DNA of 64,000 bases from an uncultured Nitrososphaeraceae archaeon. GTDB lineage: Archaea > Thermoproteota > Nitrososphaeria > Nitrososphaerales > Nitrososphaeraceae. The stretch spans positions 96,001-160,000 of the forward strand of contig CAVSMN010000010.1 in assembly GCA_963729045.1 (NCBI GenBank), written 5' to 3'. Positions 23,656 to 62,472 of the stretch are shown in pieces; within the stretch, counting starts at the first letter, position 1, and the number at the start of each line of letters is the position of its first letter. The position numbers and the translations under genes were made by a program. The notes under the pieces are model-generated. The model searched no databases and was not told the origin of the DNA. It worked only from the letters and a program-made list of their open reading frames with translations.

Positions 23656-23684
23656 AAAAGTGCAAAGTACAGGATTTGAAGCCG
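23656..23684 (-). repeat. tRNA 3'-end (T-arm/acceptor) repeat, degenerate copy
   Basis: + strand aaaagtgcaaagtacaggatttgaagccg. Confidence 0.75.
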
Positions 23685-23864
23685 ATCCTTCCTGCAGTAT
23701 TCGTTATCTAATTAAGTATTTCTTTAAGAAGGTGTATATTCTTGATATGGTAGTATTTGATTCTAGAGTATTAAACAAAATGATCTGAAACCACATAGAT
23801 ATATCCATTTGGTCTAGAACCATCTAAATTGTTGATTTTAGTAAAAAAAGATGGAATAAATTAT

Positions 23865-24281
23865 TTACTTGCAGTGACCTTTTGACCAGCCAACACTGTA
23901 TCCTTTAGCATAATCCCCTGATCCTGGAGAATATCCCCAGCAGTGATTATGATCCCACCAGCCCTGTTGGCATCCTTTTATCCAATTCTGAGACTTTCCA
24001 GAGTATTCTGTGCAATAATGGGGTGAGCTTTTGCATTCTCCTTTATTCCATCCAACTTTGTATCCCTTGGCTACCTCGCCGGTCCCTGGGTTGTAACTTT
24101 TGCAATGGTCATGATCATACCAACCTTGTTTACATCCTTCTACCCATGCGTTTGACTTTCCTATTTCATCTGCACAATAATGTGAAGCAGCATCTACAGA
24201 TTTATTGACGACCAATGATGGAGCGACGGCGATTGATATTGCAACAAGTGCTATTGCGAGTATCTTTATATTAGTATCCAT
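23865..24281 (-). CDS. Secreted Cys/Trp/His-rich protein with two tandem ~52-aa repeats
   Basis: Signal peptide (likely start MDTNIK). Repeat SHYC...W..GC.QGW.DH.HC..Y.PG.G..AKGY.VGW.KG.CK occurs twice. Confidence 0.8.
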   Translation of the reverse strand: MDTNIKILAIALVAISIAVAPSLVVNKSVDAASHYCADEIGKSNAWVEGCKQGWYDHDHCKSYNPGTGEVAKGYKVGWNKGECKSSPHYCTEYSGKSQNWIKGCQQGWWDHNHCWGYSPGSGDYAKGYSVGWSKGHCK

Positions 24282-24491
24282 TAAATTGTTCATATAATTT
24301 GGGCATATAAAAGCATTTTTGGGTCCTTTTGAATTATACATGTCATCTGATGTTACTCCAATTCTCAAAGATGTTGTAAATATGATAGAGTATGGAAGTC
24401 CACAAGGTTATGAATATCATTTAGATTATCAGCAATTGTTTGGATCCAATATGTGGTAAGAATAGAAAAAGTCCAATAAATAAAGAAAATT

Positions 24492-24545
24492 ATAGTATTG
24501 ATTTTTCCTCTGGATCAACAAGGATGAACCCTTTATTTGAACCCG
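24492..24545. repeat. Type-B element fused to the tRNA T-loop
   Basis: atagtattgatttttcctctggatcaacaaggatgaaccctttatttgaacccg; matches the copies at 34277, 53086 and 60273. Confidence 0.75.
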
Positions 24546-24629
24546 ATTCTTTTTTATTCATATCAAATGAACAATGACTATTGCCTTGTATTATTTCATG
24601 AATCATTAAATCTTAATTTTGGAAATTAT

Positions 24630-25090
24630 TGACAATTCTTAAATAATTCATTTGGCTAGAGTTAAAATACAATCAATAAAACAAATTCTGGTAGCATTCT
24701 AACTCTCATAATAGTAGCAATAGTAGTAGCGATTATGTCGACAATGATCATCACAAGTCCGATGAAAATTGCTAACGTAGATACGCAAAATATGGATACT
24801 TATAGTCACACTCTATATGGTAATAATGTAGTATGATACTGTTTAATTGACCTTGATACTGCGAAAAAGTGGTATAGTACATATTGAAATAATAATACTA
24901 ACCTACCAAGTGCGTACATACCGACTTCGGAAGAAAATACCGATGGCTGAGATAACACTAATCCAAAGGACGGTGGAGGAGTACAAGTAACCTACATTTA
25001 GAGCAATTCGTGTGGCTCAAAAGGAGGTGTTGATTCGGACAAAATCAATAGCGGTGCAATTTTTGATTAAAAAGAATATCGCAAAAACAT
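24630..25090 (+). pseudogene. Decayed paralog of the secreted-protein cassette at 48340-48890
   Basis: Shares upstream sequence and the 3' end gattc.(g/a)acaaaatcaatagcggtgca...aagaatatcgca. Confidence 0.65.
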
Positions 25091-25138
25091 TGGAATAAAC
25101 AACATTTTTTTATTTTAATAATCTAAAAAATATAAAGA

Positions 25139-25154
25139 GCGGGATTTGAGCCCC
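25139..25154 (-). repeat. tRNA T-arm repeat, short copy
   Basis: gcgggatttgagcccc. Confidence 0.6.
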
Positions 25155-25161
25155 GTAAATG

Positions 25162-25509
25162 TCATAAATTCCTTATCTTGTCAATTAGATCTAGTGAATT
25201 AGATCCAACATCAGTAGTGATATAGAGCAAGTGACTCTCGTCAAATGGCATGGTTATACGCTTTATCTTTTCGTACTCCGCTAGAACATATTTTCCTTTT
25301 CCTATCTTTGAAGCCAATTTACTTCGTGTTTTCCATGCGTTAATGGCCAACTGCAAGGATTCCTGACTCTCTTCTTTTGATAATAAATTTGTAGTTCCGG
25401 GATTATGCTCCGAATACAGGATCTTTTCATCCTTTGTATCAAATATTGTTACAAACCTTATTGCAGAATCCATACCCAATATCCTTTTTCCTAGTTCATT
25501 GTATTCCAA
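25162..25509 (-). CDS. Conserved thaumarchaeal protein (DUF6659-like)
   Basis: IRFVTI, IGKGKYVLAEYEKIKRITMP pattern. Confidence 0.7.
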   Translation of the reverse strand: MEYNELGKRILGMDSAIRFVTIFDTKDEKILYSEHNPGTTNLLSKEESQESLQLAINAWKTRSKLASKIGKGKYVLAEYEKIKRITMPFDESHLLYITTDVGSNSLDLIDKIRNL

Positions 25510-25760
25510 TAGTACAACTTTGTATCATACTTTTTTATAAACATTCTCTAAATAATATATATTTTTAATTAATAACATCTAAAATAAGTATTATTTGTAA
25601 ATTTCATATAAATATTTGTAAAAATAATAATATGATTGAAAATACATTACTAATTCATTTTTTATTTCGATTTAATTGCAATTTATTGAATCTAGTAATA
25701 AAGTAAAATTTCAACACCAAAATCATACATAATTAAGAAAAATCAAATCATAAACTAAAG

Positions 25761-25800
25761 ATGCAAAGGTGTTGGATTTGAACCCGCGATCCCTTAAGAT
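25761..25800 (-). repeat. tRNA 3' fragment extending into the putative variable arm
   Basis: atgcaaaggtgttggatttgaacccgcgatcccttaag; reverse complement ...gggatc-gcgggttcaaat. Confidence 0.7.
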
Positions 25801-26624
25801 CTCTTTGACTAGATAATCGATCAACACCTTGCGATTAGACATTCAAGATATGCATTACCAATAAGTAGTAAGTAGTAATATACAATTTTGTTCAAAGTCA
25901 TATGCTAAAGGAAGCTGAAGACAATACATCTCATCTCTACGGTAACTGACAATATGATAATCTCCCCTTATGATCACGAGTTATCATATGTTGATTTTGT
26001 ACTGAAATTATTAAAAGTAAAAGATATCTTGATATTATTGACCGTTACAGATCAGAGTTGGTGCTGAAATCCACACACCATTGAGTCCATCCTGTTGAAA
26101 AGGGAAGTGTGGAAAGAGTTACGGGCAATTGACATTAAGCAATAACGCGACTATAGAAGGAGCAATAGAATTCCAGATCAAAGAATCAAGCTACATTGAG
26201 GAAATCATGTTTGAATTTGTTATAGAATATTCTCATACTCGATATAGAATATATGACTCCACTTTAAGCTTCTAGAGAATATCACATGCAATTGCTTATA
26301 CTATTCGATTAGCAGCGGAATGACTGGACAAGTTAGACTATTTGAGATATAATTGCACTGGAAATATGAAACTAATCCTGAGATTTTTATATAACGAATT
26401 ATAGTAACAAAGTTATGAAAATGAATGCCAAGATGATCTCCTCGCATTTTATATCCTATATTATGAGCGCTAATGATTAGGACATCATAAAGAATAAGTT
26501 ACTATGGTAAGAATCTAAAAGTATGAGACATTTAGTTATCATTATCTATACCCCAAATGAAACAAAGATAAATGAACAAAATAAAGTAAAAAGTATATAC
26601 GAAACTTATTCTTTAATGCTATGC

Positions 26625-26780
26625 ATGGCAAAAATGATCAGTTGCCCATGTGGTTGGACACTTATATCTCCCCAAGGAAATGACGATATAAAAAAGCACA
26701 TACAAATACATGCTAAGGATCATCATCCTGGCTTAACCGAGACAGAGGATGAAGTTGAAAAGATGATTAAAACAGTTTAA
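26625..26780 (+). CDS. Small metal-binding protein (DUF1059-like)
   Basis: MAKMISCPCGWTL...HAKDHH. Confidence 0.7.
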   Translation: MAKMISCPCGWTLISPQGNDDIKKHIQIHAKDHHPGLTETEDEVEKMIKTV

Positions 26781-26845
26781 TGTTTAGCCAATGATGGACC
26801 GTGGATAGTATTATGACATCAAATTGCCTTCACGAACTGCAAATT

Positions 26846-27787
26846 TTATCTAGATTTTGACTCAGTCATGATTTTCTGATCTATCAAGTCGTCCATCCAA
26901 TTTTGCCTTTTCGGTTCGACAATTTCTTTAAATATAAAAAGGGAGCAAGATCTAACACCTTCTAGTTTCAATACGTTTACATATGCTTCTTCAGGCTCTG
27001 CAAGAGTAAAAGCAAAAAGATTAGCAAGCAAGATCTTCTCTGCTATGGTTCGTACAGACCAAAGCTTATCTGCATATATTTCCCTTAAATGCTTGATAAT
27101 TTTGTATCGGCTTGCTGCATCGACTGACAACTCCAGTTCATAAAATATTAAACCTTGTTGTTTCTGGCTATTTATTATTGCTCGTACTATTAACATATCC
27201 GAACCCAAGAGTTTTGTAATCCTATATCGAACCATCCTCGGAGTAATTGATAATGAGTCAGAGATCTCGTTGATTCCGGATAGTGCATTATATCGAAGCT
27301 TTTGAATAAGTTTCCAGTCTAACTTGTCCGGAATGATTAGTGGTTTTTTTATTGCACAACTTCCAAGCCTCCACTTAAATAATTCAAATCTATTGGCTAT
27401 TTCTATGGCTACTTGATCTATCTCCTCAGAGGAACCGCCTGTGATACTAATAGATACTATATTCCCTAGATAGTCAACTATATCGACAATAAATGGAAGT
27501 CCATGAGCATATTTTATAACTCCGTGTTTGGTGGCAATATTTAACGCTTCGAATCGATAGGTATTAATATTTTTGAATTCAAAGAAGCCCAGCCTGGGCA
27601 TAGCCTGATAGTATTTTATAAATCCGTCATTTTCCATTTTCTTTACTCTTGATCGAACTGTCTTCTCATCTAATCCAAGCTTCCTTCCAATCGCTGAAGG
27701 ACTAACTCTCCTATCTGTAAACGAGTCATAATCGATTCCTTTGAATGCTATTTCGCAGAAGATCCATACGTCTTTGGCATCCATCAA
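26846..27787 (-). CDS. Duplicated Lrp/AsnC-type winged-helix regulator
   Basis: Two HTHs (IGRKLGLDEKTVRSRVKKM; ISDSLSITPRMVRYRITKL), each followed by a ferredoxin-like region. Confidence 0.8.
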   Translation of the reverse strand: MMDAKDVWIFCEIAFKGIDYDSFTDRRVSPSAIGRKLGLDEKTVRSRVKKMENDGFIKYYQAMPRLGFFEFKNINTYRFEALNIATKHGVIKYAHGLPFIVDIVDYLGNIVSISITGGSSEEIDQVAIEIANRFELFKWRLGSCAIKKPLIIPDKLDWKLIQKLRYNALSGINEISDSLSITPRMVRYRITKLLGSDMLIVRAIINSQKQQGLIFYELELSVDAASRYKIIKHLREIYADKLWSVRTIAEKILLANLFAFTLAEPEEAYVNVLKLEGVRSCSLFIFKEIVEPKRQNWMDDLIDQKIMTESKSR

Positions 27788-28058
27788 TTTTCCCTGAACT
27801 ACCTGGCTAAAAAATTTAAATAAAAATTGTTATCCATGATTGATGCATTGGCGATAGACGCAATGTCTATCAATTAATATGTAAAATACGGGTGTCAAGC
27901 TCCCGGCATTTATTTACCAATCTTGCACCTTGTATCTATATAATGAAACAAGAAACAATATCATCGGTACCCTTTCAATTGGAGATGGTCGAATCTCTTA
28001 AAAGGGCACCTAAGTATCACACAAGGTTCTGTTAATTATACAGGAGAAGTGGAAACAA

Positions 28059-29117
28059 ATGGTAGTAAATGAAATAAAGTTGCAGGAATTCATTGGAAGG
28101 ATCATAAATGACTGGGGAGCTGCAGAAGGAGCTTTGATCACTTTTGTTGGCGACAGGCTTGGATTGTTTAAAGCTATGGCGGGAGAAGGTGAACTGGCAC
28201 CTGAAGAACTAGCAAAGAAGACAAACACACATCCACGAATGATTAGAGAATGGCTAGCCAGTCAAGCTGCTGGAGGTTATGTCATTTACAACAGTAACAC
28301 CAGGAAATTCTTTTTGCCCGAAGAACATGCACTGGCACTGACTGATGAAAATAGTCCTGCATATGTCTCTGGATTTTACCAATCAATAGTAAGTCTTTTC
28401 AAAGATGAGGAAAAAATTATAGAGGCATTCAAGACTGGAAAAGGTCTAGGATGGGGGGATCATCATCATTACTTGTTTGAAGGAACTGAAAGGTTTTTCA
28501 AACCTAATTACATAGCGAATCTAACACAAAAATGGATTCCAGCTCTTGATGATGTCGAAATCAAGCTAAAAAATAGAAAATGCAAGATAGCGGATGTGGG
28601 ATGTGGTCATGGAGCATCAACAATCATGATGGCAAAAGCATATCCAAATTCAAGTGTTATAGGATTTGATTCACATAAGCCATCTATTGAATGGGCCAAA
28701 AAGCGGGCAGTAGAAGAGGGTATAATGAACATTACATTTGAAGTGGCAAAATCATCAGATTATCCAGGAGACGATTATGATTTGGTTACCTTCTTTGACT
28801 GCTTCCACGACATGGGTGATCCATTAGGTGCAGCCAAACATGTTTGTCAAACCTTAAAGAAAAAGGCAGGCACATGGATGCTAGTAGAACCATTTGCCAA
28901 TAATCAATTAGAGGATAATCTAAATCCTCTTGGAAGGGTGTTTTATTCGGCATCTTCTCTGATTTGCGTTCCGGCATCTTTGAACGAAAATGGACCGGCA
29001 TTGGGAGCTCAAGCGGGTGAACAAAAAACAATGGAGATAATGAAAACGGCAGGATTCTCAAAGATCCGTTGTGCTACTCAAACACCATTCAACTTGGTCC
29101 TAGAGGCACGACCATAA
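28059..29117 (+). CDS. SAM-dependent methyltransferase with N-terminal wHTH (Rv2258c-like)
   Basis: GDRLGLFKAM, REWLASQAAGGY, ADVGCGHG, FDCFHDMGDP, TPFNLVLEARP. Confidence 0.9.
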   Translation: MVVNEIKLQEFIGRIINDWGAAEGALITFVGDRLGLFKAMAGEGELAPEELAKKTNTHPRMIREWLASQAAGGYVIYNSNTRKFFLPEEHALALTDENSPAYVSGFYQSIVSLFKDEEKIIEAFKTGKGLGWGDHHHYLFEGTERFFKPNYIANLTQKWIPALDDVEIKLKNRKCKIADVGCGHGASTIMMAKAYPNSSVIGFDSHKPSIEWAKKRAVEEGIMNITFEVAKSSDYPGDDYDLVTFFDCFHDMGDPLGAAKHVCQTLKKKAGTWMLVEPFANNQLEDNLNPLGRVFYSASSLICVPASLNENGPALGAQAGEQKTMEIMKTAGFSKIRCATQTPFNLVLEARP

Positions 29118-31643: not shown

Positions 31644-31695
31644 ATTTACTAATAGCAACCCGATGGACAAACAGATTATCAGAGGGGAACAAATT

Positions 31696-31797
31696 GGTTC
31701 AAATCCCATAGCATATTTTCAAATTCTTTATGTAAGTTTATTAAGTGAGATGTGGGGAATTTGAATCCCCAATGCTTGTCGCCTCAGGATTCTAAGC
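31696..31797. repeat. Inverted T-loop copy plus degenerate tRNA 3' half
   Basis: ggttcaaatccca at 31696; gtgagatgtggggaatttgaatcccc at 31745. The reverse complement includes an anticodon-like loop cttagaa. Confidence 0.55.
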
Positions 31798-32661: not shown

Positions 32662-32690
32662 AGATGACAGCTATGTCAAATACCTAGGAT

Positions 32691-32719
32691 AAAAATGCAA
32701 AGTGTTGGATTTGAACCCG
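32691..32719 (-). repeat. tRNA 3'-end repeat
   Basis: aaaaatgcaaagtgttggatttgaacccg. Confidence 0.75.
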
Positions 32720-33116
32720 TCATGTCGTGATTCTGTTATGCGGCCATATATCCCTTCAAAATATCGTTTACTTTTGAATATCGGTTTTCTGATTCTTGTA
32801 TTTACAGATAAAGGAGCAACAGAAGCAGCATTTTACCTTTAATGCCAATCATTCAAATCAGATAATGAGTTTTAGATTTCAACCATTCATCAAGTGTAAG
32901 AATATTTTCGTACAAAATTGTTACGGTTACAAAACATTTTGAATAAAATTTTCCATAACAAGTTTGGCATATGATAATTTGAGTTCCAGTAAACAAGTTG
33001 CTTTTAGTAGACAATTATCAAGACGCTTAGAACAATAGGTATTCAAGTCATCTATAATAAAGACATGTTCCTACCTTGAAATTTTTATTTAAATAAGATT
33101 AATTAATATAAAATAC

Positions 33117-33684: not shown

Positions 33685-33711
33685 AAAAGTGCTTAATGCA
33701 GGATTCGAACC
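33685..33711 (-). repeat. tRNA 3'-end repeat, degenerate
   Basis: aaaagtgcttaatgcaggattcgaacc. Confidence 0.65.
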
Positions 33712-33763
33712 AGACTCCTAATATAGATTAGCCGGGCTTTTTATCATACCAAACGAAATAGAC

Positions 33764-34219: not shown

Positions 34220-34276
34220 TGACTAGGTGTAAGATACTCAAATCCCTACCTATAAAATTCATAATCGTGATTAGAA

Positions 34277-39596: not shown

Positions 39597-39625
39597 GAAA
39601 AGTGCAAAGTGCGGGATTGAACCCG
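39597..39625 (-). repeat. tRNA 3'-end repeat
   Basis: gaaaagtgcaaagtgcgggattgaacccg. Confidence 0.85.
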
Positions 39626-39633
39626 TCATTTTG

Positions 39634-44657: not shown

Positions 44658-45340
44658 TTAAGAATTAGGGTAGAAAAGAAGAAAAGGTAAAGCAATATTT
44701 AACATTTCTATAGGCGGCACATCTGTGAAATAACAACTACACAGTATTACCAATCCTATTTGTTTGTCTGGATTGAATCCGACAAATGAACTATAACCGT
44801 CTATACCTCCATTATGCCAAATTACCTGATTTCCTAAATCAGTTGTGCTAAACCACGACAATCCGATATATCCATAGTGGAACGATTCAAATCCTGAAGG
44901 ATCATCAAATGGAACTTGTACTTCAGTAAACGGATGTCTAATCAAGTGACTTGTCTCCATTGCGTTATTGAGCTTTGTATCCATCAATCCCATGTTAGCT
45001 GAGACATACTTTAGTAAATCATTAACTGTTGAGTACATCGCACCTGCACCTTGTACTTTTTGAGGGAGAAATATTAATTCACTTTCATTTCCTACCATGT
45101 GGCCTTTTGCAAATTTAGATACAATATTCTCAGAGTACTGATATACTTGTTGCATTCATTGCAAATCCTGTACTATTCATTCCTAATACATTCCCTATTC
45201 TATCCTTAAGCAGTTGATCCAGGGGAATACCTGTTAATGACAGGACATGTCCTACCAGACCCAATCCTATATTTGAATAAGCAGATTTAGTTCCTGGTTC
45301 AGTTGCTAGTGTTGAATTCGAAAGAAAATCATAAGATTTC
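44658..45340 (-). pseudogene. Serine hydrolase (beta-lactamase class C-like), 5'-truncated and frameshifted
   Basis: GAGAMYSTVNDL and WHNGGIDGYSS. The upstream frame has PGTKSAYSNIGLGL and LGMNST; no SxxK region is seen. Confidence 0.75.
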
Positions 45341-48206: not shown

Positions 48207-48247
48207 TCAAATCCCGCTTGAAAAGTGCAAAGTGCGGGATTTGAACC
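48207..48247. repeat. Composite inverted T-arm repeat (type C)
   Basis: tcaaatcccgc-ttgaaaagtgcaaagt-gcgggatttgaacc. Confidence 0.85.
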
Positions 48248-48379
48248 ATAGTCTTTTGGCATCCTTTTATAACAAATGATTAAAAATCATTATCATGTAT
48301 TAATTCACAAATTAATTCACAAATTATAAGAATCTTGGAATCTTACAAATTGTTGAAAATTCTCAAATAATTCAATTGC

Positions 48380-48865
48380 CATGACTTAAAATACGACTAA
48401 CAAAATAAAATTCAAAATGCAGTGCTCCCTATGACATTATTACCACTGATTTCAATGATAAATTTAAGCACTATGACTATAGGTAATGTAGATGCACGAA
48501 AAATGGATACTGCTACATGTACCAGTAATAATGATGGAACCGTCGGTACGGTAACTTGTTGAGCATTAGATCAGGACACTATGGTTCAATGGTGTACTAC
48601 CTGTGTTAATACTAAACCCCCTAGTAACTGTTCAGAAGCAGAACAGCAATTTCATACCAAGGGTGGCGAAAATGCGAATCCAAACAATGGTGGGGTACTA
48701 AGTAGCGACGACTCAAGCAATCAAGGCGGCTCAAATACTGTTGATCCAGACAAGATTATTGATGGAGGAACATTCAATGATGATGGCGGTTCAAGCAATT
48801 CGGGTGACTCAAATGGAGGGATTGATTCGAACAAAATCAATAGCGGTGCAGTATTTAATCAATAA
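48380..48865 (+). pseudogene. Secreted Cys-containing, G/N/S-rich protein, disrupted 5' end
   Basis: ORF 48581-48865 with upstream in-frame stops; paralog remnant at 24630-25090. Confidence 0.55.
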
Positions 48866-48920
48866 GAATATCGCAGGAATCATATATAAATAACGTTATC
48901 TTATTTTACTTATCTATGAA

Positions 48921-48938
48921 GGTGCGGGATTTGAACCG
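48921..48938 (-). repeat. tRNA T-arm repeat
   Basis: ggtgcgggatttgaaccg. Confidence 0.8.
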
Positions 48939-49104
48939 TATATTGTATCAGACAAACACTAGTCAATTATTGACAATATCATGAAATACTTAATTACAGG
49001 CCATTAGAAGGGTTCTAATGAATAAAGTTTGGGTTATGCATCTAGCCTATTGAAAACTGAAAAACAAAATTAAGACAAATAAGATATACTTGCTTTAGAA
49101 TCAA

Positions 49105-49482
49105 ATGATCATGTCTGAAAATATCCATATCAGAGCTGAATTCATCATAGAAAAAGATAATGTAGAACAATTTAGAAAACTGATAAGAGAAATGAGCAAT
49201 GTTGTTGAGACCAACGAACCAAACACATTAGTGTATCAGTTCTATCTTAACGGAGATGGAACAAAATGTATGGTCCATGAAACATATGTAGATTCCAAGG
49301 CTGTTTTATCTCACAATGATAGCACGGCTTCAAAAACAATTCTCCCTAGAATATTTAACATAGCCAAACTAAGAACACTTGACGTTTATGGTAATCCCAA
49401 TAATGAATTGAAAAAGTTGTTGGCAGGTTTCAATTCACAGATATTTAATTTGTATATAGGATTCAATCGGAAAAACGAATAA
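49105..49482 (+). CDS. ABM/quinol monooxygenase-like protein
   Basis: NEPNTLVYQFY, HETYVDS.A..H, VYGNP. Confidence 0.8.
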   Translation: MIMSENIHIRAEFIIEKDNVEQFRKLIREMSNVVETNEPNTLVYQFYLNGDGTKCMVHETYVDSKAVLSHNDSTASKTILPRIFNIAKLRTLDVYGNPNNELKKLLAGFNSQIFNLYIGFNRKNE

Positions 49483-49556
49483 TATGCTTCTCAATATACT
49501 AAATATTTATTTTCAATCACAATCACTTTATATGCTAACGCTTATTGTTATAGTTA

Positions 49557-50771
49557 GTGTTTTTAATCAAATCAAAATCAGCACCATTTATAGTTTTAAG
49601 CGTATTTTTTGGTGCATTCATGATTTTATCATCATATTCAACGTCATTCAATATATCCTTAATTTCTGAGACTTTGGCCCAGTCGGATCTTCAGATTGTC
49701 AAATATAGAAATTTAATCCTAGATTTGGGTGATGGAGTAAAGACTAATGCTCAATTATCTTATCCTGCGATAGGTAAAGGACCATTTCCGGCAGTGTTGC
49801 TTATTCCTGGCTCTGGCGCAGTTGACATGAACGAAACCTTGGGCGAAAATATCAAACCATTCTGGCAAATATCTCAATATCTTTCTGAGAGGGGATTTGC
49901 GGTACTAAAGTACGATAAAAGAGGTGTTGGTGAAAGTTTCACTATTTTGAACCCAAATGTATGGGGAAATAATACAGTCGATGATCAAATTCAAGATAGC
50001 GAGAAAGCCTTGAATGTTCTCGTACATCAGCCTGAAGTAGATCCAAATAGGATAAGTATAATTGGCCATAGCGAAGGTACACTTTATGCTCCAAGAGTAG
50101 CGGTTGATAATTCGACAAAGATAAGCAACATTATACTTATGGGTGTCCTAGCCCAAAACCCTTTAAAAGATGTAGAGTACTATCAAGACGTTTCCTTACC
50201 ATTAGAATACGCTATGCAAGTATTAGATAAAAATCACACCGGATTGATATCCATACAACAAATAGTAACGGATCCTTTATTAAAGAACTTTTTGCTGCCT
50301 TCTTCAGTTTTGCATACTAATGATACCAAAGACATGACTAATACGTTAATTAAGGAATTTGGTACTAGTGGGTACATAAATATTGATGAACAACTTAAAC
50401 CTTTTCTGACAAAAGGCTATGAAAACATTACAGCATTCAATTTGCTAAAATGCAATACTCTTGGAGTATGTCCTATATTATGGAAATCTTTATCTAATAT
50501 GACAACAAATTTCAGCTTCATTGGTAACGTATCTAACTCTACAGGCATTCTAATACTTAATGGGGAAAATGATGCTCAAACACCAGTTCAACAAGCATTT
50601 TTATTGCATCAGAAGCTTAATGAAGTAAATCATACTGACCATACATTAATAACATACCCCGACCTTGGACACGTTTTTTATCCATCATCAAAATGGCAAA
50701 CAGGGATCGGACCTATCAAACCTAATGTTTTGGCAGATTTATATTCATGGTTGGAGTCCCATTCAAGATAG
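49557..50771 (+). CDS. Secreted alpha/beta hydrolase
   Basis: GSGAVD, YDKRGVG, GHSEG, GENDAQTP, YPDLGH. Confidence 0.88.
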   Translation: MFLIKSKSAPFIVLSVFFGAFMILSSYSTSFNISLISETLAQSDLQIVKYRNLILDLGDGVKTNAQLSYPAIGKGPFPAVLLIPGSGAVDMNETLGENIKPFWQISQYLSERGFAVLKYDKRGVGESFTILNPNVWGNNTVDDQIQDSEKALNVLVHQPEVDPNRISIIGHSEGTLYAPRVAVDNSTKISNIILMGVLAQNPLKDVEYYQDVSLPLEYAMQVLDKNHTGLISIQQIVTDPLLKNFLLPSSVLHTNDTKDMTNTLIKEFGTSGYINIDEQLKPFLTKGYENITAFNLLKCNTLGVCPILWKSLSNMTTNFSFIGNVSNSTGILILNGENDAQTPVQQAFLLHQKLNEVNHTDHTLITYPDLGHVFYPSSKWQTGIGPIKPNVLADLYSWLESHSR

Positions 50772-50925
50772 TAAATGGAGTTTTATTTCGCTTTTTATCA
50801 GACAGGACAATGTATTGTCATAAACCTTCGTTCTTTAGCAATAACCTATTAAAATGAATTGAATGGCATAAAAACATGCTACTAAGAAAATTATATTGTC
50901 AATAAACAGTTAATTTGAGCATAAT

Positions 50926-51019
50926 AAAGTGCGAAGTGCGGGATTTGAACCCGTTTCTATGACATGATTAGCCAAGGTTTAATTTACTATAGTTAATAAC
51001 AATAAGGAACGGGTTCAAA
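50926..51019. repeat. tRNA 3'-end repeat with downstream inverted T-loop copy
   Basis: aaagtgcgaagtgcgggatttgaacccgtt at 50926; aacgggttcaaa at 51008. Confidence 0.85.
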
Positions 51020-53233: not shown

Positions 53234-53340
53234 TTCAAATCCCGCTTGAAAAGTGCGAAGTGCGGGATTTGAACCCGCTTCTTCTTTTGTCCAGTTCAAA
53301 TCCCTTTGTTCAGTGAGGGAGAAAGAGAACCCGCAATCCC
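53234..53340. repeat. Composite inverted T-arm repeat (type C) plus two further fragments
   Basis: ttcaaatcccgcttgaaaagtgcgaagtgcgggatttgaacccgctt; gttcaaatccc at 53294; gaacccgcaatccc at 53327. Confidence 0.88.
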
Positions 53341-53558
53341 TCTATCTTTAGTTGTTGGTTATAGAGTAGGGATAATTTGACCAAGATAATCTTCTTACAA
53401 GATTACACCCTCTTTATATACTTCCTTGAGTGAATTTGGTTATGAATAATAATAGACAGGTAAGAAAAGAATTATCTTTTCCATTATAGTATTCATTTCT
53501 ATACTCTAATTTTCTCAAGTATGACCATGAATCTAATGGTGCTTTACTAATATAGTGG

Positions 53559-54482
53559 ATGGGATCAAACAAATTTACCCAGACCAATTCAAGCAATACC
53601 ACGAATTTGGTAAATACCCAAGACATTCCATTAGAAAAAGTCCATGTTGGAGATATTGAAATGGCGTATAAAATGTTTGGTAAAGGAGATCCCTTGATAC
53701 TTCACAATGGTGCTTCTGATAATATGGATGCATGGGATCCAGCCCTTTTAAGCAGACTAGCGTCAAATAACACAGTAATTGTGTTTGATAGTCGTGGAAT
53801 AGGAAATACTACTGCAGGTACCGAACCGTATTCTATTCAGTTACTTGGTAATGATACTGCGGGTTTAATGGACGCTTTGAAAATACAACAAGCAAACGTT
53901 CTTGGATATTCTCTAGGTACATTTACAACCCAACAATTTGCAATTACGCATCCTGATAAGGTTAGTAGTATTATACTTATTGCTGGAACCTGTGGTGGGA
54001 AAGATGGTATACCTAAACCGACTGAGTTTATGAAATCGATGTCCGAAATGGCAAATAAGTCTTCAAACAATGAATCCATGACTCAGGAGGATTTCAAATC
54101 CCTTGTAACTGCCTCATTAGGATCGGGATGGGTAAAACTGCATCCTGAATCTGCTGATATTCCAGAAAATATGACATTAGCAGCAGCAAAGCCTGGTCTT
54201 TCTCCTGAAGCAATGAACAATCAGATGAACGCTGGATTTGCTTGGGAGGCAACCAACTGGAATGGTGTTTGTGACAACCTTGCGAAAATAGACAAGCCCC
54301 TGTTAGTTATAACAGGAACAGACGACAATGAATATGTCCCACATGAAAACTCTTTAGTCATTGCAAACAAGGTTCCAGGAGCATGGCTTGTACAGATAAA
54401 GGATGCTGGTCATGCAGTTCCGGATCAATATCCTGATGAAGTCGGTAACATAATAGAAACATTTTTGTCGACTGTAAAATAG
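53559..54482 (+). CDS. Alpha/beta hydrolase
   Basis: FDSRGIG, GYSLG, GTDD, DAGH. Confidence 0.88.
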   Translation: MGSNKFTQTNSSNTTNLVNTQDIPLEKVHVGDIEMAYKMFGKGDPLILHNGASDNMDAWDPALLSRLASNNTVIVFDSRGIGNTTAGTEPYSIQLLGNDTAGLMDALKIQQANVLGYSLGTFTTQQFAITHPDKVSSIILIAGTCGGKDGIPKPTEFMKSMSEMANKSSNNESMTQEDFKSLVTASLGSGWVKLHPESADIPENMTLAAAKPGLSPEAMNNQMNAGFAWEATNWNGVCDNLAKIDKPLLVITGTDDNEYVPHENSLVIANKVPGAWLVQIKDAGHAVPDQYPDEVGNIIETFLSTVK

Positions 54483-54530
54483 TAGGAGACTAATCAGGAA
54501 AGAAGAATTAGATATTAATTTCGTACGCGA

Positions 54531-54599
54531 TGTAGACAAGCGGGTTCAAATCCTTATCTGAAGAAAGGAGAAGAAGTGCGAGGTGCGGGATTTGAACCC
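54531..54599. repeat. Composite inverted T-arm repeat (type D)
   Basis: tgtagacaagcgggttcaaatcc...gtgcgaggtgcgggatttgaaccc. Confidence 0.88.
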
Positions 54600-56376: not shown

Positions 56377-56461
56377 ACCCTACAAAGAAGGATCCTAAAA
56401 ATAAAGGTTTTGGTAATAAATTACAATGATCTTCACTTAAATAAAAATCCACCATGAGGTG

Positions 56462-57379: not shown

Positions 57380-59040
57380 CTATCCAGCCTTATTTAATGG
57401 CAAAGTAAAGGTAAATGTTGCTCCTGTATCATCCTTGTTATTTTCTGCCCATAAGTCTCCATCGTGTGCCACAACAATCTTTTTTGAGATATACAATCCC
57501 AAACCCATACCTTGATACGAGTTAGTGGTAAACGTGGTAAATAATTTCTGAAAAATCTCTTTATCAATCCCGACACCTGCATCCTTTACTTTCAAAATAA
57601 CCATTTCCTTACTGCTTGCATTATGCATATTGATTACCTTACTTTCAGCTTTTATTGATATTGAAACCAAGTCGGAGGAAAACTTTATTGAATTACTAAT
57701 CAAATTAGAAATAACTTGGCTTATCCTACTTTTATCTCCAAAAACGACCAAAGTATCAGGGATTTCATATGTGATTTTTATATTTTTATTATCAGTACAA
57801 TTTTGATAATCTCTTATCATATCTGGTATTATTTCCTTAAATGTAAAATTTTCTTTAATGAGCGTAAGAGAATTACTTTCAATTTTTGCTACGTCTAAGA
57901 TATCTTCGGATAGTTTCTTTAATCTTTTTGCATTTCTGTTTAAGATATCGAGAAATTCCCTAAGTTCATGATCTTTTATTCTACTTTTAACGAAGTCCGA
58001 TACATTAATTATTGGCTGTATTGGTGTTCTTAATTCATGGGCGGCTACATTAATGAATTCCTTTTGCATCCTGTCATTGACTTGTAATTGTTCATACAAC
58101 TCTATTTGTTTCCAAATAACGTCGAATATTGCAGCATATGTTAATACAGTGGGTAAACTATTAGAATAAGTTGCAAACCCTATTGCTTCTGCAACTGTAT
58201 GCTTGGCATCATCCCTTAGCTCTGCAACTATCGAATACCTTCTATCAACCACCAAAATTGATACTTGAGATATTGGATCCATAAATCTAAAATGAATATT
58301 TAGATTGTTGGCTAGACCTTTACATGTTGCTTCTATTTCATTATCCTTAGGTATCAGCACTTTCATTTTTACATTGGGGTTAGAATCTGTTATTTCTTTA
58401 AGAATTCGTATAGATCCATTGTGCTCTAGTCTGTGAAAAGCATTAGCGGTAGAGAAGATAATTAAAATCTCCTCTTTTGTAGACCTCAAAAGATCAACGA
58501 GTTTGTTTTGTAAGACCACAGGGTCATTTATAGATTCAATGACTTCAGGAATTATACCCTCCTCGATTTCCTTTATTTTTTTCTCACCTGGAACTGCGTG
58601 TTCTCCATAAGGTATCAAAGATATATTGACCCTGTTCAATCACTTCTTTTACATTGCTATAGATAACTTGGGTAAGAGGAGTACTTTTCTTGAAGAACTG
58701 TGGTAGCCATATATTCTGACTCGCTGACGGCAACACCACCTCTAACGCCATCTAGATGCCGCAGTTCATCAACAAGATTTATCAGATCTTTACAGTTACC
58801 GACATTTTCTTTTGTAATCTCTGTAAATGCCCTTATCTTCCCTCCCCTGTTACGAATATTTAGATATCCATCTCTATATTCTTTAATCTCTACTACAATT
58901 GATGGAGCATTTTTGTCAAAATATATATCCATCTTTTCTTTGACGTTTTCCATAAAATATATTCCCCTCCCCACCGCTTTCTCGACGCCATAAAGAATCT
59001 CTGAGCTTTTATCCTTGGTTTGAGGGAAGGAAGGAATACC
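57380..59040 (-). CDS. Sensor histidine kinase with TrmB/PLD-like N-terminal domains, frameshifted near 58600-58680
   Basis: AAHELRTP, QVISNLISNSIKF, DAGVG and GMGLGLYI. The N-terminal part lies in ORF 58657-58974 (ELRHLDG). Confidence 0.85.
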
Positions 59041-59218
59041 CGTAATGTTTCATCTAAATATCATGTTTAAAATATAAAAATATGCCGCTGCAAACACTTT
59101 AGTACGAAACTGTCATAGTTCATTAATTCTCCTTTTTTCAAGTAACTTTTAATTAAAGAAGTTGCTTTGAGACATTTAGGCATAAATTTTTAATAAAATG
59201 GGCTTTTAATACAATATA

Positions 59219-60200
59219 GTGGATGATTTAACATTTAGACAATTGATGGAATCAAAATATTATCATCCAGAGGTTACAGATGTCATTTTTGATTCCGATA
59301 AAATGTTAGAAATGGGCATAGTTGCTATTAATAGTACTGAAAGAGGATTTGTTATAGTATGGGATAAAATAATGCTTGATTCCTTGTGGAAGTTTTATAA
59401 AGTTGGTATACTCCTTGCTGAAAAACATGCCAAAGAAAGGGGTATCAAATTTAGACTAATTGTTGAAATTACGAAAGAAAACATGGAGTCTGTTAAATCA
59501 TTCAAGTATTATGAAATAAAACATATTGATAATATAAGAAGTAACTTTGCTGTATTGGATAACAGGGCCTATATGGTGCAAATATTTCATAAGGAAAATG
59601 AGCCTCCTGCTCAGGCGTTATTTAGTAATACTAAAGCCCTAGTAGATAGTCAACAAGCACTATTTAACAGATTATGGGAAATTGCAACTCCAATAGCAAA
59701 CAGATTAAAAGAGATAGAATATCGTGATAAATTAAACTACCAGAGGATTTTAACAAATCATAAAGAAATTCATAATGAAATAGATTCTTTAACATAACAA
59801 TGTGAAAAAGAATTACTAATATTTTCGTCATTCAAATTAATTTATACTGTACTTAACAAGAATAACTTTGTAAATAATTTTAACTCATTGCTAAGAAAAG
59901 GTATTACAATTAAGATTCTCACCGACGATATTGATGAACATTTAATGAGTCATATTGCTCAAATAAAGGACAACAAATAAAGATAATCCGATGCAGTTTG
60001 GGTATAGCAACAAGTTGGGAGAATTTAATGAATTTATAATGTTAAGCGATAATAAGTATGTCTTGCAAATAAAATATGACCAACAAAATGAAATAGTTGC
60101 CTCATTTTCAAATGAAGAGCATAATGTAATGATTCAAGAGATTCTATTTGAAAAATATTGGAATGAAGTCAAGAGTCTTACAGTCATTAGCAATAATTAG
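59219..60200 (+). pseudogene. TrmB/PLD-like double-domain protein with two in-frame stops; paralog of 61065-62045
   Basis: Same frame continues past TAA at 59795 and 59978; collinear with the 326-aa paralog. Confidence 0.8.
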
Positions 60201-60272
60201 ATAGTTTTAGATTCAATAATTGAAGGTCATTAAAACAAGGATTGATAAAATGTTGAACGCAATGATGCGCTA

Positions 60273-60323
60273 ATAGTATTGATCTTTGCGCGGGATCAAG
60301 GACGAACCGCATTATTTGAACCC
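60273..60323. repeat. Type-B element fused to the T-loop
   Basis: atagtattgatctttgcgcgggatcaaggacgaaccgcattatttgaaccc. Confidence 0.8.
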
Positions 60324-60488
60324 ACTAACAATTATTAAATGACAATCTCGATGCTCTCAACATTAACCCTCTAATGTAATAGTAAGGTCATTGGACTAGA
60401 TAAGATGTGGATTTGCACAGAAACCTTTGAAAGACAATATAAAAATGATTTAAGGTAAATTAAATTCATATTAGATTTTGATGGTGTT

Positions 60489-60755
60489 CTAATTTAATAA
60501 TCCACCTAATAAGCCGGTTGCTTTTTCTGTTAGAGATGAGTCAGACGAGGTAGAATCATTTGTTGTTGATACTGAACTATTATTCGTTCTTTGACTATTA
60601 TCATTTCCTGTCAGTAACTTTGTTGCCTCATCTTTAAGAGTGGACAAATCCTGCGCTAATGCCGTCTGGCCTAATGAATTACTTACTAGCGATGCTGTCA
60701 ATACAAATGACAGAACAAAACTCGCGATTACTAAAATTTTCTTCATCTTTTTCAA
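60489..60755 (-). CDS. Small secreted protein
   Basis: Signal peptide and S/T/N-rich linker. Confidence 0.7.
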   Translation of the reverse strand: MKKMKKILVIASFVLSFVLTASLVSNSLGQTALAQDLSTLKDEATKLLTGNDNSQRTNNSSVSTTNDSTSSDSSLTEKATGLLGGLLN

Positions 60756-60921
60756 ATTGTATGTTCATCATATTATATAACAGATACAACATTGAGTAAG
60801 TTATAAACAGTATTTCATCCAGATATCAGAGTGGGAAGTTTTACAATACCAATAATAAATTTACCATTTTCAATTAGCGTGAGACCGAATGATTAGAAAA
60901 CAGAAACCATGTAGACAGATT

Positions 60922-60991
60922 TGTAGATAAGCGGGTTCAAATCTATCTTAAGAAAAGAAGAATGAGGTGCGAGATGCGGGATTTGAACCCG
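60922..60991. repeat. Composite inverted T-arm repeat (type D)
   Basis: tgtagataagcgggttcaaatc...gtgcgagatgcgggatttgaacccg. Confidence 0.88.
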
Positions 60992-61064
60992 AGTTAAGAG
61001 TTGTCAAGGATAAGAGACATGTCTAGGACAACTTTTTAATAAAATGGAGTTTTGATACAATACA

Positions 61065-62045
61065 GTGGATGATATAACATTTCGACAATTGAAAGAATCT
61101 GGCTATCATCATCCCGAGGTTACAGAAGTAATTTTTGATGCCAACCAAATGTTTGAAATGTCATTGCACTCGGTCAGTATTAGTGAAAAAGGCTACGATA
61201 TAGTATGGGACAAGGTTATGATAGATTTTCTGAGAAAATATTTCAAAGAGGGCCTGCAACTCCTTGAAGATTTGGCCAATAAAAGAGGATTAAGAAGAAG
61301 ATTAATTGCAGAGACTACCGCAGATAATATTGAATTTGTAAATTCACTAAGTTATTCTGAAATAAGACACCTTGATAATCTCAGAGGAAATTTTGGAATA
61401 TTTGATGAAAGGGCATATATTGTCCAAATTTTTCACAAGGATACAGAAAAACCAAATCAAGCATTTTGGAGTAATTCCATTACACTTGTAAGAAAACAAC
61501 AAGCCCTGTTCGACGATTTATGGAAAATGGCTATCCCATTGTCGGCCAGAAATAAAGAGTTAACGTATCATGTAAATCCAGAATATAGGAAAACTTTTAC
61601 TGATTATGATCACATATATCAAGAGGTAAAATCAATCCTTGAACAAAGTAGAAGGGAATTATTAATATTTGCATCTTTTAAAATTTTGAAGAGAATATTT
61701 CACAATAAGGATTGGATCAATACTATCGCTTCACTGCTAGCAAGAAGAGTGAATACTAGAATATTGACAGATGATATTGATGGAGATTCAGCAAGAAAAA
61801 TTATGCGGATCCAAAATGAAGATAAGGACAAAAGAATCCATTTTGGATATAATGACAAATTAGGAAATTTCAATGAACTGGTTATATTAAGTGATGAGAA
61901 GTATGCTTTGCAAATAAAGTATGACCATCAAAATAAACTAATAGCATCATTCACTAATGAAGAATCCAGTGTTATGATTCAAGAGATATTATTTGAGAAA
62001 TGCTGGAACGAAGTAAAGAGTCTCGAAGTTGTGAATAGCAATTAG
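61065..62045 (+). CDS. Kinase-less TrmB/PLD-like sensor-domain protein
   Basis: EIRHLDNLRGNFGIFD, QQALFDDLW and ILFEKCW; same domain type as the histidine kinase N-terminus. Confidence 0.75.
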   Translation: MDDITFRQLKESGYHHPEVTEVIFDANQMFEMSLHSVSISEKGYDIVWDKVMIDFLRKYFKEGLQLLEDLANKRGLRRRLIAETTADNIEFVNSLSYSEIRHLDNLRGNFGIFDERAYIVQIFHKDTEKPNQAFWSNSITLVRKQQALFDDLWKMAIPLSARNKELTYHVNPEYRKTFTDYDHIYQEVKSILEQSRRELLIFASFKILKRIFHNKDWINTIASLLARRVNTRILTDDIDGDSARKIMRIQNEDKDKRIHFGYNDKLGNFNELVILSDEKYALQIKYDHQNKLIASFTNEESSVMIQEILFEKCWNEVKSLEVVNSN

Positions 62046-62409
62046 ATTAATTACTATGAGGATAAAAATTTCAACATTATATAAATGAAAAATAAAGTCG
62101 ACTGGTCCAATAATATTGAATAAATTTAGAGTGGCTTTACAAATTCTTACTAATACTCAATCTAGTTTTTGCCTTTACTATCAGGAGAACAATCGCCGCT
62201 TTCTACGAGCCTTGTGATTTCTCGTTTTTATCGGCATTTTCTTCAGCATCTTTCAAGTTGTTTATCAATCTTTTGTCTGCCTTGGTGTCATTGCTTGTCC
62301 TTTTCCAAAACTTTCCTAATTTTCTAAATAGCACAGAGTCTTTCAACTAATTCTACATGTATACTATAGATGAATTTGCTTATAAAGAAAATAACGTCAT
62401 AAAAACAAG

Positions 62410-62472
62410 TGCGAGATGCAGGATTTGAACCCGCACTTCGCTCGTACCTTAACCAGGCTGGGCCAACCTCGC
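62410..62472 (-). tRNA. tRNA-Leu-like gene lacking anticodon and variable arms (pseudo-tRNA)
   Basis: Reverse complement GCGAGGT-TG-GCCCAGCCTGGTTAAGGT-ACGAGCGAAGT-GCGGG-TTCAAAT-CCTGC-ATCTCGC-A: 7-bp acceptor stem, D-arm, T-arm and discriminator A. Leu identity is inferred. Confidence 0.75.

What the first reader, a model, noticed from the sequence alone, without database searches (positions are those of the whole stretch)
23656..62440. Polarised decay gradient of the repeats away from the tRNA anchor
Seen: copies near the anchor match its acceptor stem (60967 gtgcgagatgcggg; 54576 gtgcgaggtgcggg). Intermediate copies read gtgcgaagtgcggg (53253, 50929), then gtgcaaagtgcggg (48225, 39602). Distal copies are most degenerate (gtgcttaatgcagg, atgcaaagtgttgg, gtgcaaagtacagg), and none is clear below ~23 kb. 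Inference: new cassettes enter next to the tRNA and push older ones outward, so the island is a chronological record like a CRISPR or integron array.
Basis: partly seen in the sequence, partly recalled or inferred. Interest (0 to 1): 0.75.

Follow-up and report, generated by a model that had tools for sequence, protein, structure and literature searches.

The report
tRNA-Gly-anchored gene cassette array
A soil ammonia-oxidising archaeon carries a roughly 39-kb island of gene cassettes separated by leftover copies of the end of a glycine tRNA gene, built by repeated site-specific insertion, a known way of growing genomic islands.

Summary
The repeats are real. At least 13 same-strand copies of a ~25-nt tRNA 3' end (acceptor strand plus T arm) lie between 23.6 and 62.4 kb, far above chance.

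The "anchor" at 62410-62472 is not an intact tRNA. It is a 63-nt tRNA-Gly(CCC) remnant without an anticodon arm.

A scan of 185,579 species genomes shows the normal tRNA-Gly(CCC) end reads GTGCGAAG. The anchor's GAGA variant occurs in 0 of 118 matches.

Identity does fall with distance:
- gapped scoring, rho about -0.7;
- conservative ungapped scoring with all weak copies, rho -0.50, p 0.06;
- three related arrays with intact tRNAs, pooled p 0.04.

Much of the variation is shared between copies, so it is inherited with cassettes rather than decayed in place.

Relatives (Ca. Nitrosocosmicus) encode a tyrosine integrase next to this tRNA end, and their cassettes recur in other orders. The window has no integrase.

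The entry-at-the-tRNA model is already published for Prochlorococcus islands. Verdict: a new archaeal member of a known kind. The polarity is only partly chronological.

The parts
62410..62472 (-). Truncated tRNA-Gly(CCC), the 'anchor'. It has the native 5' 33 nt (acceptor 5' strand, D arm, start of the anticodon stem), then GAAGT, the T arm and the 3' acceptor strand. The 17 nt that hold the anticodon loop are missing.
   Evidence: Rfam RF00005 scores 35.6 bits with 13 model positions replaced by 2 nt. ARAGORN finds no tRNA. Alignment to 59 intact orthologues.
62409..62435 (+). att copy inside the anchor (GTGCGAGATGCAGGATTTGAACCCGCA). It is 23/27 to the canonical tRNA-Gly(CCC) end.
60967..60993 (+). 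att copy, GAGA variant, 24/27 to canonical.
60300..60326 (+). Degenerate att-like site that keeps only the ATTTGAACCC core (18/27). The homologous position in L040 holds a perfect copy.
54576..54599 (+). att copy, GAGG variant. It is the only variant that pairs perfectly with the anchor's 5' acceptor strand GCGAGGU.
53253..53279 (+). att copy identical to the canonical tRNA-Gly(CCC) 3' end (26/27).
50929..50955 (+). att copy, canonical (25/27).
48915..48941 (+). att copy lacking 7 nt of the acceptor part (..GAAGGTGCGGGATTTGAACCGT). The 25130 copy has the same form, and the cassette to its left is paralogous.
48225..48251 (+). att copy, AAAG variant (23/27).
39602..39627 (+). att copy, AAAG variant with a 1-nt deletion in the T loop.
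33689..33715 (+). Decayed att copy (GTGCTTAATGCAGGATTCGAACCAG).
32695..32721 (+). att copy ATGCAAAGTGTTGG.., which shares three derived changes with the 25762 copy.
31745..31771 (+). Weak att-like copy (20/27) with an inverted T-loop partner at 31696-31707.
25762..25789 (+). att copy ATGCAAAGGTGTTGG.. with a 1-nt insertion.
25130..25156 (+). Weak att copy of the 7-nt-deleted type.
23660..23686 (+). The most distal clear att copy, AAAG variant with three private changes.
60931..60943 (+). Inverted T-arm fragment (GCGGGTTCAAATC) that forms a 13-bp hairpin with the 60967 copy. Analogous partners lie at 54540-54553, 53234-53245 and 48207-48217.
   Evidence: The motif is enriched at orphan copies in relatives.
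53280..54575 (+). Single-gene cassette (alpha/beta hydrolase, ORF 53559-54482) bounded exactly by two att copies. It recurs in 18 locus entries of relatives at 68-88% identity.
48942..50928 (+). Cassette with an ABM monooxygenase (49105-49482) and an S9-type hydrolase (49557-50771). It recurs in L036/L062, L012 and L083, and in L083 it lies next to the intact tRNA.
60994..62408 (+). The anchor-proximal cassette, with ORF 61065-62045 (326 aa, no family match). A degraded paralogue lies at 59184-60202.
62520..62819 (-). Conserved ~100-aa gene that flanks the 5' side of tRNA-Gly(CCC) across Nitrososphaeraceae. It marks the anchor as the orthologous chromosomal tRNA locus, or a copy of it.

Best explanation
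The region from about 23.6 to 62.4 kb is a genomic island at the tRNA-Gly(CCC) locus of a Nitrososphaeraceae archaeon, most likely Ca. Nitrosocosmicus.

How it was built. The island grew by repeated site-specific integration of circular elements into the 3' end of the tRNA gene. The enzyme is a tyrosine integrase of the archaeal phage-integrase family (Pfam PF16795). Relatives encode it directly beside this tRNA end.

What each integration leaves. Each event duplicates about 24-32 nt of the tRNA end. Strand exchange is inferred to occur in the T loop, between the symmetric T-stem arms. The element then loses its integrase, leaving small integrase-less cassettes of one to a few accessory genes separated by orphan att copies.

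Why the copies differ. New elements mostly enter at the tRNA, so distal copies tend to be older and carry more private mutations. That gives a real but noisy gradient. The acceptor-strand part of each copy is inherited from the attP of the cassette on its distal side. So GAGA, GAGG, GAAG, AAAG and the 7-nt-deleted form are att alleles carried with cassettes, not steps of decay.

State of the anchor. In this window the tRNA is itself broken. Its anticodon region is replaced by an inverted copy of the canonical 3' acceptor strand. That looks like a template switch at the palindromic T arm.

Shown here: the copies, the tRNA identity, the integrase in relatives, cassette sharing and the broken anchor. 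Inferred: the crossover position, the allele-inheritance model and the template-switch origin.
For: 1. The repeats equal the 3' end of tRNA-Gly(CCC). Of 118 distinct matches to GTGCRARRTGCRGGATTTGAACC in the species-genome collection, 61 lie in intact tRNAs: 59 Gly(CCC) with GAAG, 1 Gly(CCC) with GAGG and 1 Gly(GCC). The other 57 are orphans, nearly all in Nitrososphaeraceae.
2. An integrase is tied to this site. PF16795 matches at E 1.9e-12. The cluster has 9 ORFs, all on the array side, 152-474 nt from a copy and transcribed away from it. Seven are at the intact tRNA and two at orphans. tblastn finds four further integrase matches beside tRNAs (L015, L032, L061, L100), and C-terminal remnants abut orphan copies in L040/L079.
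3. Cassettes bounded exactly by copies recur in other genomes in other orders.
4. The crossover lies in the T loop. Window 60300 and L040 10001 share sequence only from ATTTGAACCC rightwards.
5. A gradient exists in the window and in three arrays with intact tRNAs.
6. Shared variants travel with cassettes. The 7-nt-deleted copies at 48915 and 25130 follow paralogous cassettes.
7. The anchor has the native 5' 33 nt followed by GAAGT in place of 17 nt. GCGAAGTGCGGG there is the reverse complement of the canonical end.
Against: - The window has no integrase or integrase remnant. Pfam was run on 59 ORFs, PHROGs and NCBIfam on 20, and tblastn with 9 integrases gave nothing below E 0.1. The mechanism is therefore imported from relatives.
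- With conservative scoring the window's gradient is only marginal (rho -0.50, p 0.059).
- One relative array (CAVZZA3, 3 orphans) shows rho 0.
- The allele-inheritance model is not always obeyed. L104 and L056 share the same left flank but carry GAAG and GAGG respectively. The 32695 and 25762 copies share three changes without flank homology.
- The loci were fetched through exact 23-nt matches, so old arrays are under-sampled.
- The broken anchor could be an assembly error at a repeat. The window's provenance is unknown.
Confidence: 0.7

Rival explanations
1. Strict chronological register. Every new cassette enters at the tRNA, order equals age, and sequence differences between copies are in-situ decay from the anchor's sequence.
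For: There is a negative identity-distance correlation. Seven of 9 integrases sit at the intact tRNA. The acceptor variants form a single-step series along the array, AAAG, GAAG, GAGG, GAGA.
Against: - The anchor is broken and derived. The canonical sequence is mid-array.
- Variants are shared by 2-5 copies.
- A degenerate copy lies 2.1 kb from the anchor.
- Cassette order is permuted in L090 and L062.
- Two of 9 integrases are at orphan copies.
- The distal segment 34351-35042 is 96% identical to L041, while that genome's tRNA flank (L069) is 88% identical.
Confidence: 0.12
2. Integron-like capture platform. The small cassettes are discrete mobile units that are excised and re-inserted in trans by a tRNA-Gly-specific integrase encoded elsewhere. 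Each uses a structured att made of the tRNA end plus an inverted T-arm motif.
For: - Single-gene cassettes with exact att boundaries recur in 18 locus entries in different contexts.
- Conserved cassette ends include an inverted T-loop motif within 40 nt in 21 of 56 orphans, against 1.5% background.
- The motif forms hairpins of 11-14 bp.
- Short cassettes mostly carry + strand genes.
Against: - No circular or empty-site evidence is available.
- Integrase C-terminal remnants abutting copies in L040 show that at least some integrase-less units are deletion products.
- Shared cassettes could be spread by homologous recombination between arrays.
Confidence: 0.25
3. No age polarity. All differences between copies are att alleles brought by different elements or made by gene conversion, and the apparent gradient is a by-product of which copies were recognised.
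For: Most variant states are shared by more than one copy. The gradient weakens to p 0.059 when all weak copies are scored ungapped.
Against: Private substitutions and indels are concentrated in distal copies. Three independent arrays with intact tRNAs trend the same way (pooled permutation p 0.039).
Confidence: 0.1
4. Chance similarity or assembly artefact: the copies or the broken anchor are not biological.
For: Repeats of this kind fragment short-read assemblies; many related contigs end at copies. The window's source is unknown.
Against: The copies exceed shuffles by more than tenfold. The same architecture is present in long contigs of relatives, including a truncated tRNA 5' remnant inside an array on a 1.46-Mb contig.
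Confidence: 0.03

Closest known systems
Tycheposon-driven tRNA islands of Prochlorococcus (Hackl et al., bioRxiv 10.1101/2020.12.28.424599; passages read)
   Same: [quoted passage not shown] Partial tRNA copies separate tandem elements. Newer arrivals push older ones into the island. Degenerated elements and further partial tRNAs are scattered distally. The cargo is niche-related accessory genes.
   Different: The host here is an archaeon and the tRNA is Gly(CCC). The integrase belongs to Pfam PF16795, and its relation to tycheposon recombinases was not tested. The window has no integrase, many units are single-gene, and the anchor tRNA is broken.
Integrated mobile elements of Thaumarchaeota (Krupovic et al. 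2019, PMC6563490; passages and Table S2 searched)
   Same: These are tyrosine-recombinase elements in the 3' parts of thaumarchaeal tRNA genes with short att sites. The paper notes that such elements can form arrays by re-using a site.
   Different: That survey does not mention Nitrosocosmicus (0 occurrences). A word search of its supplementary tables for 'Gly' gave tRNA-Gly(GCC) as the only tRNA-Gly target. The passages I read describe no multi-cassette array of this kind.
Tandem accretion of ICEs and cis-mobilisable elements (CIMEs) in Streptococcus
   Same: Integrase-less units flanked by att sites accumulate beside an integrative element at one site and may be mobilised in cis or trans.
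   Different: Those are bacterial conjugative elements. No conjugation genes were seen here.
Integrons, including those reported in Archaea (Ghaly et al., bioRxiv 10.1101/2022.02.06.479319; search listing only)
   Same: An array of mostly single-gene accessory cassettes separated by recombination sites with inverted-repeat character.
   Different: The window has no IntI-type integrase and no attI. The sites are copies of a tRNA 3' end, not attC. Spacing reaches 8.6 kb and includes multi-gene segments.

Membership tests
tRNA-targeted tyrosine-recombinase integrative elements (tandem-integration island) | Direct repeats identical or near-identical to the 3' part of a tRNA gene bound the inserted DNA, all in the tRNA's orientation | tested here: met
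   At least 13 copies on one strand match the tRNA-Gly(CCC) end.
tRNA-targeted tyrosine-recombinase integrative elements (tandem-integration island) | An intact target tRNA gene at one end of the island | tested here: not met
   The anchor lacks the anticodon arm. Intact anchors are present in relatives.
tRNA-targeted tyrosine-recombinase integrative elements (tandem-integration island) | An integrase gene next to an att site | tested here: inconclusive
   None in the window. In relatives the feature is present: 9 PF16795 ORFs lie 152-474 nt from copies.
tRNA-targeted tyrosine-recombinase integrative elements (tandem-integration island) | Excision to a circle and an empty site in some cells or strains | not testable with these tools
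   Needs reads or experiments.
SSV-type (self-partitioning) archaeal integrases | The att site lies inside the integrase ORF, so integration splits the gene | tested here: not met
   No T-loop core lies inside 6 full-length integrase ORFs of relatives, and the ORFs beside the tRNA are whole.
Integron | IntI integrase with an adjacent attI and promoter | tested here: not met
   No integrase family appears in 59 ORFs of the window.
Integron | attC sites between cassettes | tested here: not met
   The inter-cassette repeats are copies of a tRNA 3' end. No attC model was run.
CRISPR array | Short regular repeat-spacer units and nearby cas genes | tested here: not met
   Spacing between successive listed copies is 534-8623 bp. 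No cas domains were found.
Tycheposons | The specific tyrosine or serine recombinase clades and replication modules that define the family | not tested
   Only the island model was compared. No tycheposon integrase sequences were compared.

The most novel reading that the evidence does not exclude
Ca. Nitrosocosmicus may carry an archaeal, tRNA-anchored counterpart of an integron. In this reading, a tRNA-Gly(CCC)-specific integrase captures, shuffles and exchanges between species small integrase-less gene cassettes. The recombination site of each cassette combines the tRNA 3' end with an inverted T-arm motif that can fold into a hairpin. The tRNA's own 3' strand is overwritten at each capture, which would explain mismatched or broken anchors.
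Probability: 0.25. Interest if true: 0.7.

Novelty: new member of a known kind. Interest (0 to 1): 0.42.

Why it matters
Ca. Nitrosocosmicus are widespread soil ammonia oxidisers, so how they gain accessory genes bears on niche adaptation in the nitrogen cycle.

- The island carries hydrolases, reductases, an aquaporin-type (MIP) channel, a CorA-type magnesium transporter and regulators.
- The tRNA-Gly(CCC) site appears to be a genus-wide hotspot. The same cassettes circulate between species there.
- This extends the tRNA-island growth model described for marine cyanobacteria to an archaeal lineage.
- It also gives a cautionary case: the tRNA end of such an island can itself be overwritten or destroyed. 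Distance-to-anchor identity is then a poor clock unless the family's canonical tRNA is used as the reference.

Tried and rejected
Only tRNA-Gly(CCC) carries these ends, apart from one Gly(GCC) in an unrelated Sysuiplasma genome. GAGA and AAAG occur in no intact tRNA among 118 matches.
- An integrase hidden in unknown ORFs of the window: not found with Pfam (59 ORFs), PHROGs, NCBIfam or tblastn with 9 integrases.
- SSV-type split integrase: rejected.
- Pooled gradient over all loci with an intact tRNA: uninformative. Of 26 loci with more than 3 kb downstream, most have no orphan copy; the 12 copies found give rho -0.05. Only Nitrosocosmicus arrays were then used.
- Coding density as a decay measure: 0.66 proximal against 0.52 distal, too small a difference to use.
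- Synteny to the right of the anchor: it stops after the ~100-aa gene at about 62.82 kb. I therefore could not decide whether the anchor is the true chromosomal locus or a pseudo-anchor like the one in L040.
- Whether proximal cargo is more strain-specific: not answerable. The loci were fetched by exact att matches, and the best identities show no trend.

Full report
**What is in the sequence.** They are about 24-27 nt long and read GTGCnnnnTGCGGGATTTGAACCCG on the + strand. This is the reverse complement of a tRNA's T arm plus its 3' acceptor strand.

They are far more frequent than chance:
- the 14-mer gives 8 matches against 0.57 expected;
- the T-arm 17-mer gives 13 against 0.05;
- at >=17/27 identity there are 18 sites against 0-3 in 20 shuffles.

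Sixteen of those 18 sites are on the + strand. The two on the - strand are palindromic T-arm partners. Clear copies start at 62409, 60967, 54576, 53253, 50929, 48225, 39602, 33689, 32695, 25762 and 23660. Weaker ones start at 60300, 48915, 31745, 25130 and 23126. Only marginal hits lie below 23 kb.

**The anchor is not an intact tRNA.** ARAGORN finds no tRNA anywhere in the 64 kb. Rfam's tRNA model matches 62410-62472 on the - strand at 35.6 bits, but 13 anticodon-arm positions are replaced by 2 nt.

Comparison with intact orthologues shows the following:
- The anchor keeps the native 5' 33 nt, GCGAGGTTGGCCCAGCCTGGTTAAGGTACGAGC.
- It then has GAAGT in place of the 17 nt TTCCCAAGCTCGGGATC.
- The T arm and ATCTCGCA follow.

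The stretch GCGAAGTGCGGG in the anchor is the reverse complement of the canonical 3' end. One search had already flagged it as a - strand match at 62430-62443. I read this as a template switch at the palindromic T arm, but that is an inference. Because the window's source is unknown, an assembly error at a repeat cannot be excluded.

A comparable truncated tRNA 5' remnant lies inside an array on a 1.46-Mb contig of a relative, at L040 10657-10690. The intact tRNA on that contig is 16.6 kb further on.

**Which tRNA, and which variant is original.** One scan of the species-genome collection used GTGCRARRTGCRGGATTTGAACC. It returned 105 loci, nearly all Nitrososphaeraceae and mainly Ca. Nitrosocosmicus. 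The window's 31-37% G+C in 2-kb windows does not conflict with that placement.

After removing duplicate contexts there are 118 matches:

| Class | Count | Variants |
|---|---|---|
| Inside intact tRNAs | 61 | 59 tRNA-Gly(CCC) GAAG; 1 tRNA-Gly(CCC) GAGG; 1 tRNA-Gly(GCC) GAGG (unrelated genome) |
| Orphan copies | 57 | 48 GAAG; 6 GAGG; 1 GAAA; 2 AAAG (one is a chance hit in a bacterium) |

The anchor's GAGA variant occurs 0 times. The anchor and its neighbour carry a derived form.

The 54576 copy (GAGG) is the only one that pairs perfectly with the anchor's 5' strand GCGAGGU. The other variants pair through G-U wobbles. This follows from the sequences.

**The gradient.**

| Scoring | Set | rho | p |
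|---|---|---|---|
| Gapped identity to the anchor | n 14 | -0.75 | 0.002 |
| Gapped identity to the canonical 27-mer | n 15 | -0.72 | 0.003 |
| Ungapped 24-nt identity to canonical, with 60300 and 48915 | n 15 | -0.50 | 0.059 |

The gapped set did not include 60300. The best copies are at 53253 and 50929, not at the anchor.

Three arrays in relatives have intact tRNAs. Their 27-nt identities, tRNA copy first, are:
- WHSX06: 27, 26, 25, 25, 24, 25, 21 over 15.7 kb.
- CAVWZU2: 27, 26, 26, 27, 26, 26, 25, 23 over 23.9 kb.
- CAVZZA3: 27, 26, 25, 24 over 24.5 kb.

On 24-nt scoring without the tRNA copy, the stratified permutation gives p 0.039 for these three and 0.003 with the window added. CAVZZA3 alone gives rho 0. 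A wider pool of 26 loci with intact tRNAs was uninformative, because most have no orphan copies.

**Decay versus inherited alleles.** Many differences are shared between copies:
- GAGA in 2 copies.
- GAAG in 2 copies.
- A at position 5 in 5 good distal copies. That change is rare among relatives' copies.
- ATGCAAAG..TGTTGG in 2 copies.
- A 7-nt deletion of the acceptor part in 48915 and 25130. Both of these follow paralogous cassettes (24615-25083 and 48339-48875, 77-87% identity).

Shared states cannot be independent decay. Private changes do rise with distance: 0-1 in the six proximal good copies against 1-6 in the distal ones (read). The gradient therefore mixes true ageing with att alleles that travel with cassettes.

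A simple recombination model explains the linkage. It assumes the crossover is in the T loop, which is supported by window 60300 and L040 10001 sharing sequence only from ATTTGAACCC onward. Under that model the acceptor part of each orphan copy comes from the attP of the cassette on its distal side. The model is not always obeyed: L104 and L056 share a left flank but carry different variants.

**Mechanism, from relatives.** The window has no integrase. Pfam was run on 59 ORFs, PHROGs and NCBIfam on 20 unassigned ORFs, and tblastn with 9 integrases gave nothing below E 0.1.

In relatives, a 363-384-aa ORF matching Pfam PF16795 (archaeal phage integrase, E 1.9e-12) forms a cluster of 9:
- all lie on the array side, 152-474 nt from a copy, transcribed away from it;
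- 7 are at the intact tRNA-Gly(CCC);
- 2 are at orphan copies.

tblastn adds four more integrase matches beside tRNAs (L015, L032, L061, L100). It also finds C-terminal remnants (residues 338-372) that directly abut orphan copies in L040/L079. At least some integrase-less units are therefore deletion products. No att core lies inside the intact ORFs, so these are not self-splitting SSV-type integrases.

**Cassettes.** The units between copies carry one to a few accessory genes. Pfam assigns an alpha/beta hydrolase, an aldo-keto reductase, ABM monooxygenases, an S9-type hydrolase, a MIP channel, CorA, a PNPOx-like protein, a patatin-like protein and a histidine kinase.

- The alpha/beta-hydrolase unit (53249-54599) is bounded exactly by copies. 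It recurs in 18 locus entries at 68-88% identity, once directly beside an intact tRNA (L004). Twice it occurs as tandem pairs, which are 83-86% identical to each other.
- Cassette order differs between genomes. In L090 the tail of the window's first cassette is followed by the 60.3-61.0 kb unit and then by the hydrolase unit. L062 has another order again.
- The distal segment 34351-35042 is 96% identical to L041. The tRNA flank of the same genome (L069) is 88% identical. Distal cargo is therefore not uniformly old.

**Comparison with known systems.** The tycheposon preprint states the same growth model for Prochlorococcus islands: integration at the tRNA at the proximal end, partial tRNAs between tandem elements, and newer elements pushing older ones inward (passages read).

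The thaumarchaeal mobile-element survey notes that tyrosine-recombinase elements can form arrays by re-using a site. It does not mention Nitrosocosmicus, and a word search of its supplementary tables for "Gly" gave tRNA-Gly(GCC) as the only tRNA-Gly target.

A search for Nitrosocosmicus, "genomic island" and tRNA together found 3 papers. Judged from titles and the starts of their abstracts, none is about this locus.

The array fails the defining features of integrons and CRISPR arrays.

**Verdict.** The repeats and a noisy outward decline are real, but the anchor is a broken tRNA and is not the reference state. Entry at the tRNA is the main route, but the array is not a strict chronological record. 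It is a new archaeal member of a known kind of tRNA-anchored island.

Noticed in passing
window 60931-60943, 54540-54553, 53234-53245, 48207-48217, 31696-31707; relatives' orphan copies: An inverted fragment of the T arm (such as AAGCGGGTTCAAATC) lies 15-36 nt to the distal side of many att copies and can form an 11-14 bp hairpin with the copy. TTCAAAT occurs within 40 nt in 21 of 56 orphan copies, against 4 of 60 intact tRNAs and 1.5% of background windows. Its role is unknown; it could be an integrase arm site, a terminator or a structured att.
   Followed up: partly
window 53253-53345; L012, L040, L059, L086 and L090 copies: To the proximal side of several copies, the copy stops at ..GAACCCGC. 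About 50 nt follow, containing GTTCAAATCCC, and then a second GAACCCGC(G)ATCCCT. It looks like a tiny insert flanked by an 8-nt duplication inside the att site.
   Followed up: no
L040 10657-10830 (and L079 3112-3285): A truncated tRNA-Gly(CCC) 5' 30 nt plus about 170 nt of its upstream flank lies inside an array, 16.6 kb from the intact tRNA on the same contig. This suggests that flanking DNA was captured or duplicated into the island.
   Followed up: partly
L040 9875-9991 and 17435-17536: Integrase C-terminal remnants (about 35 aa, including the ..SISAKHY.. segment) directly abut two orphan copies. They have identical 40-nt flanks, so a segment is duplicated within that array.
   Followed up: partly
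window 59184-60202 vs 61030-62047: Two neighbouring cassettes hold paralogous genes at 73-83% DNA identity. The proximal ORF is 326 aa. The distal one is cut to 192 aa, although it is 92% identical to a 335-aa ORF in L044, so it is probably a pseudogene. No family match was found for this protein.
   Followed up: partly
window 7943-8578 and 8505-8996: Two overlapping ORFs both match multicopper-oxidase domains, as if one gene were split by a frameshift.
   Followed up: no
window 44658-45155: A 165-aa ORF matches only profile positions 216-310 of the 329-position beta-lactamase-fold family model. A full-length 408-aa relative is in L055. It is probably a truncated gene within the island.
   Followed up: no
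window 14766-15608 and 17488-18300: Two paralogous class I methyltransferase genes lie 2.7 kb apart on the same strand. A 60-nt stretch within them aligns at 75%. Weak att-like hits at 14451 and 20677 leave open whether the island extends below 23 kb.
   Followed up: no
window 3-2725: An SMC/Rad50-like ATPase and a calcineurin-like (Mre11-type) phosphoesterase lie side by side at the left end of the window. They are probably core repair genes outside the island.
   Followed up: no
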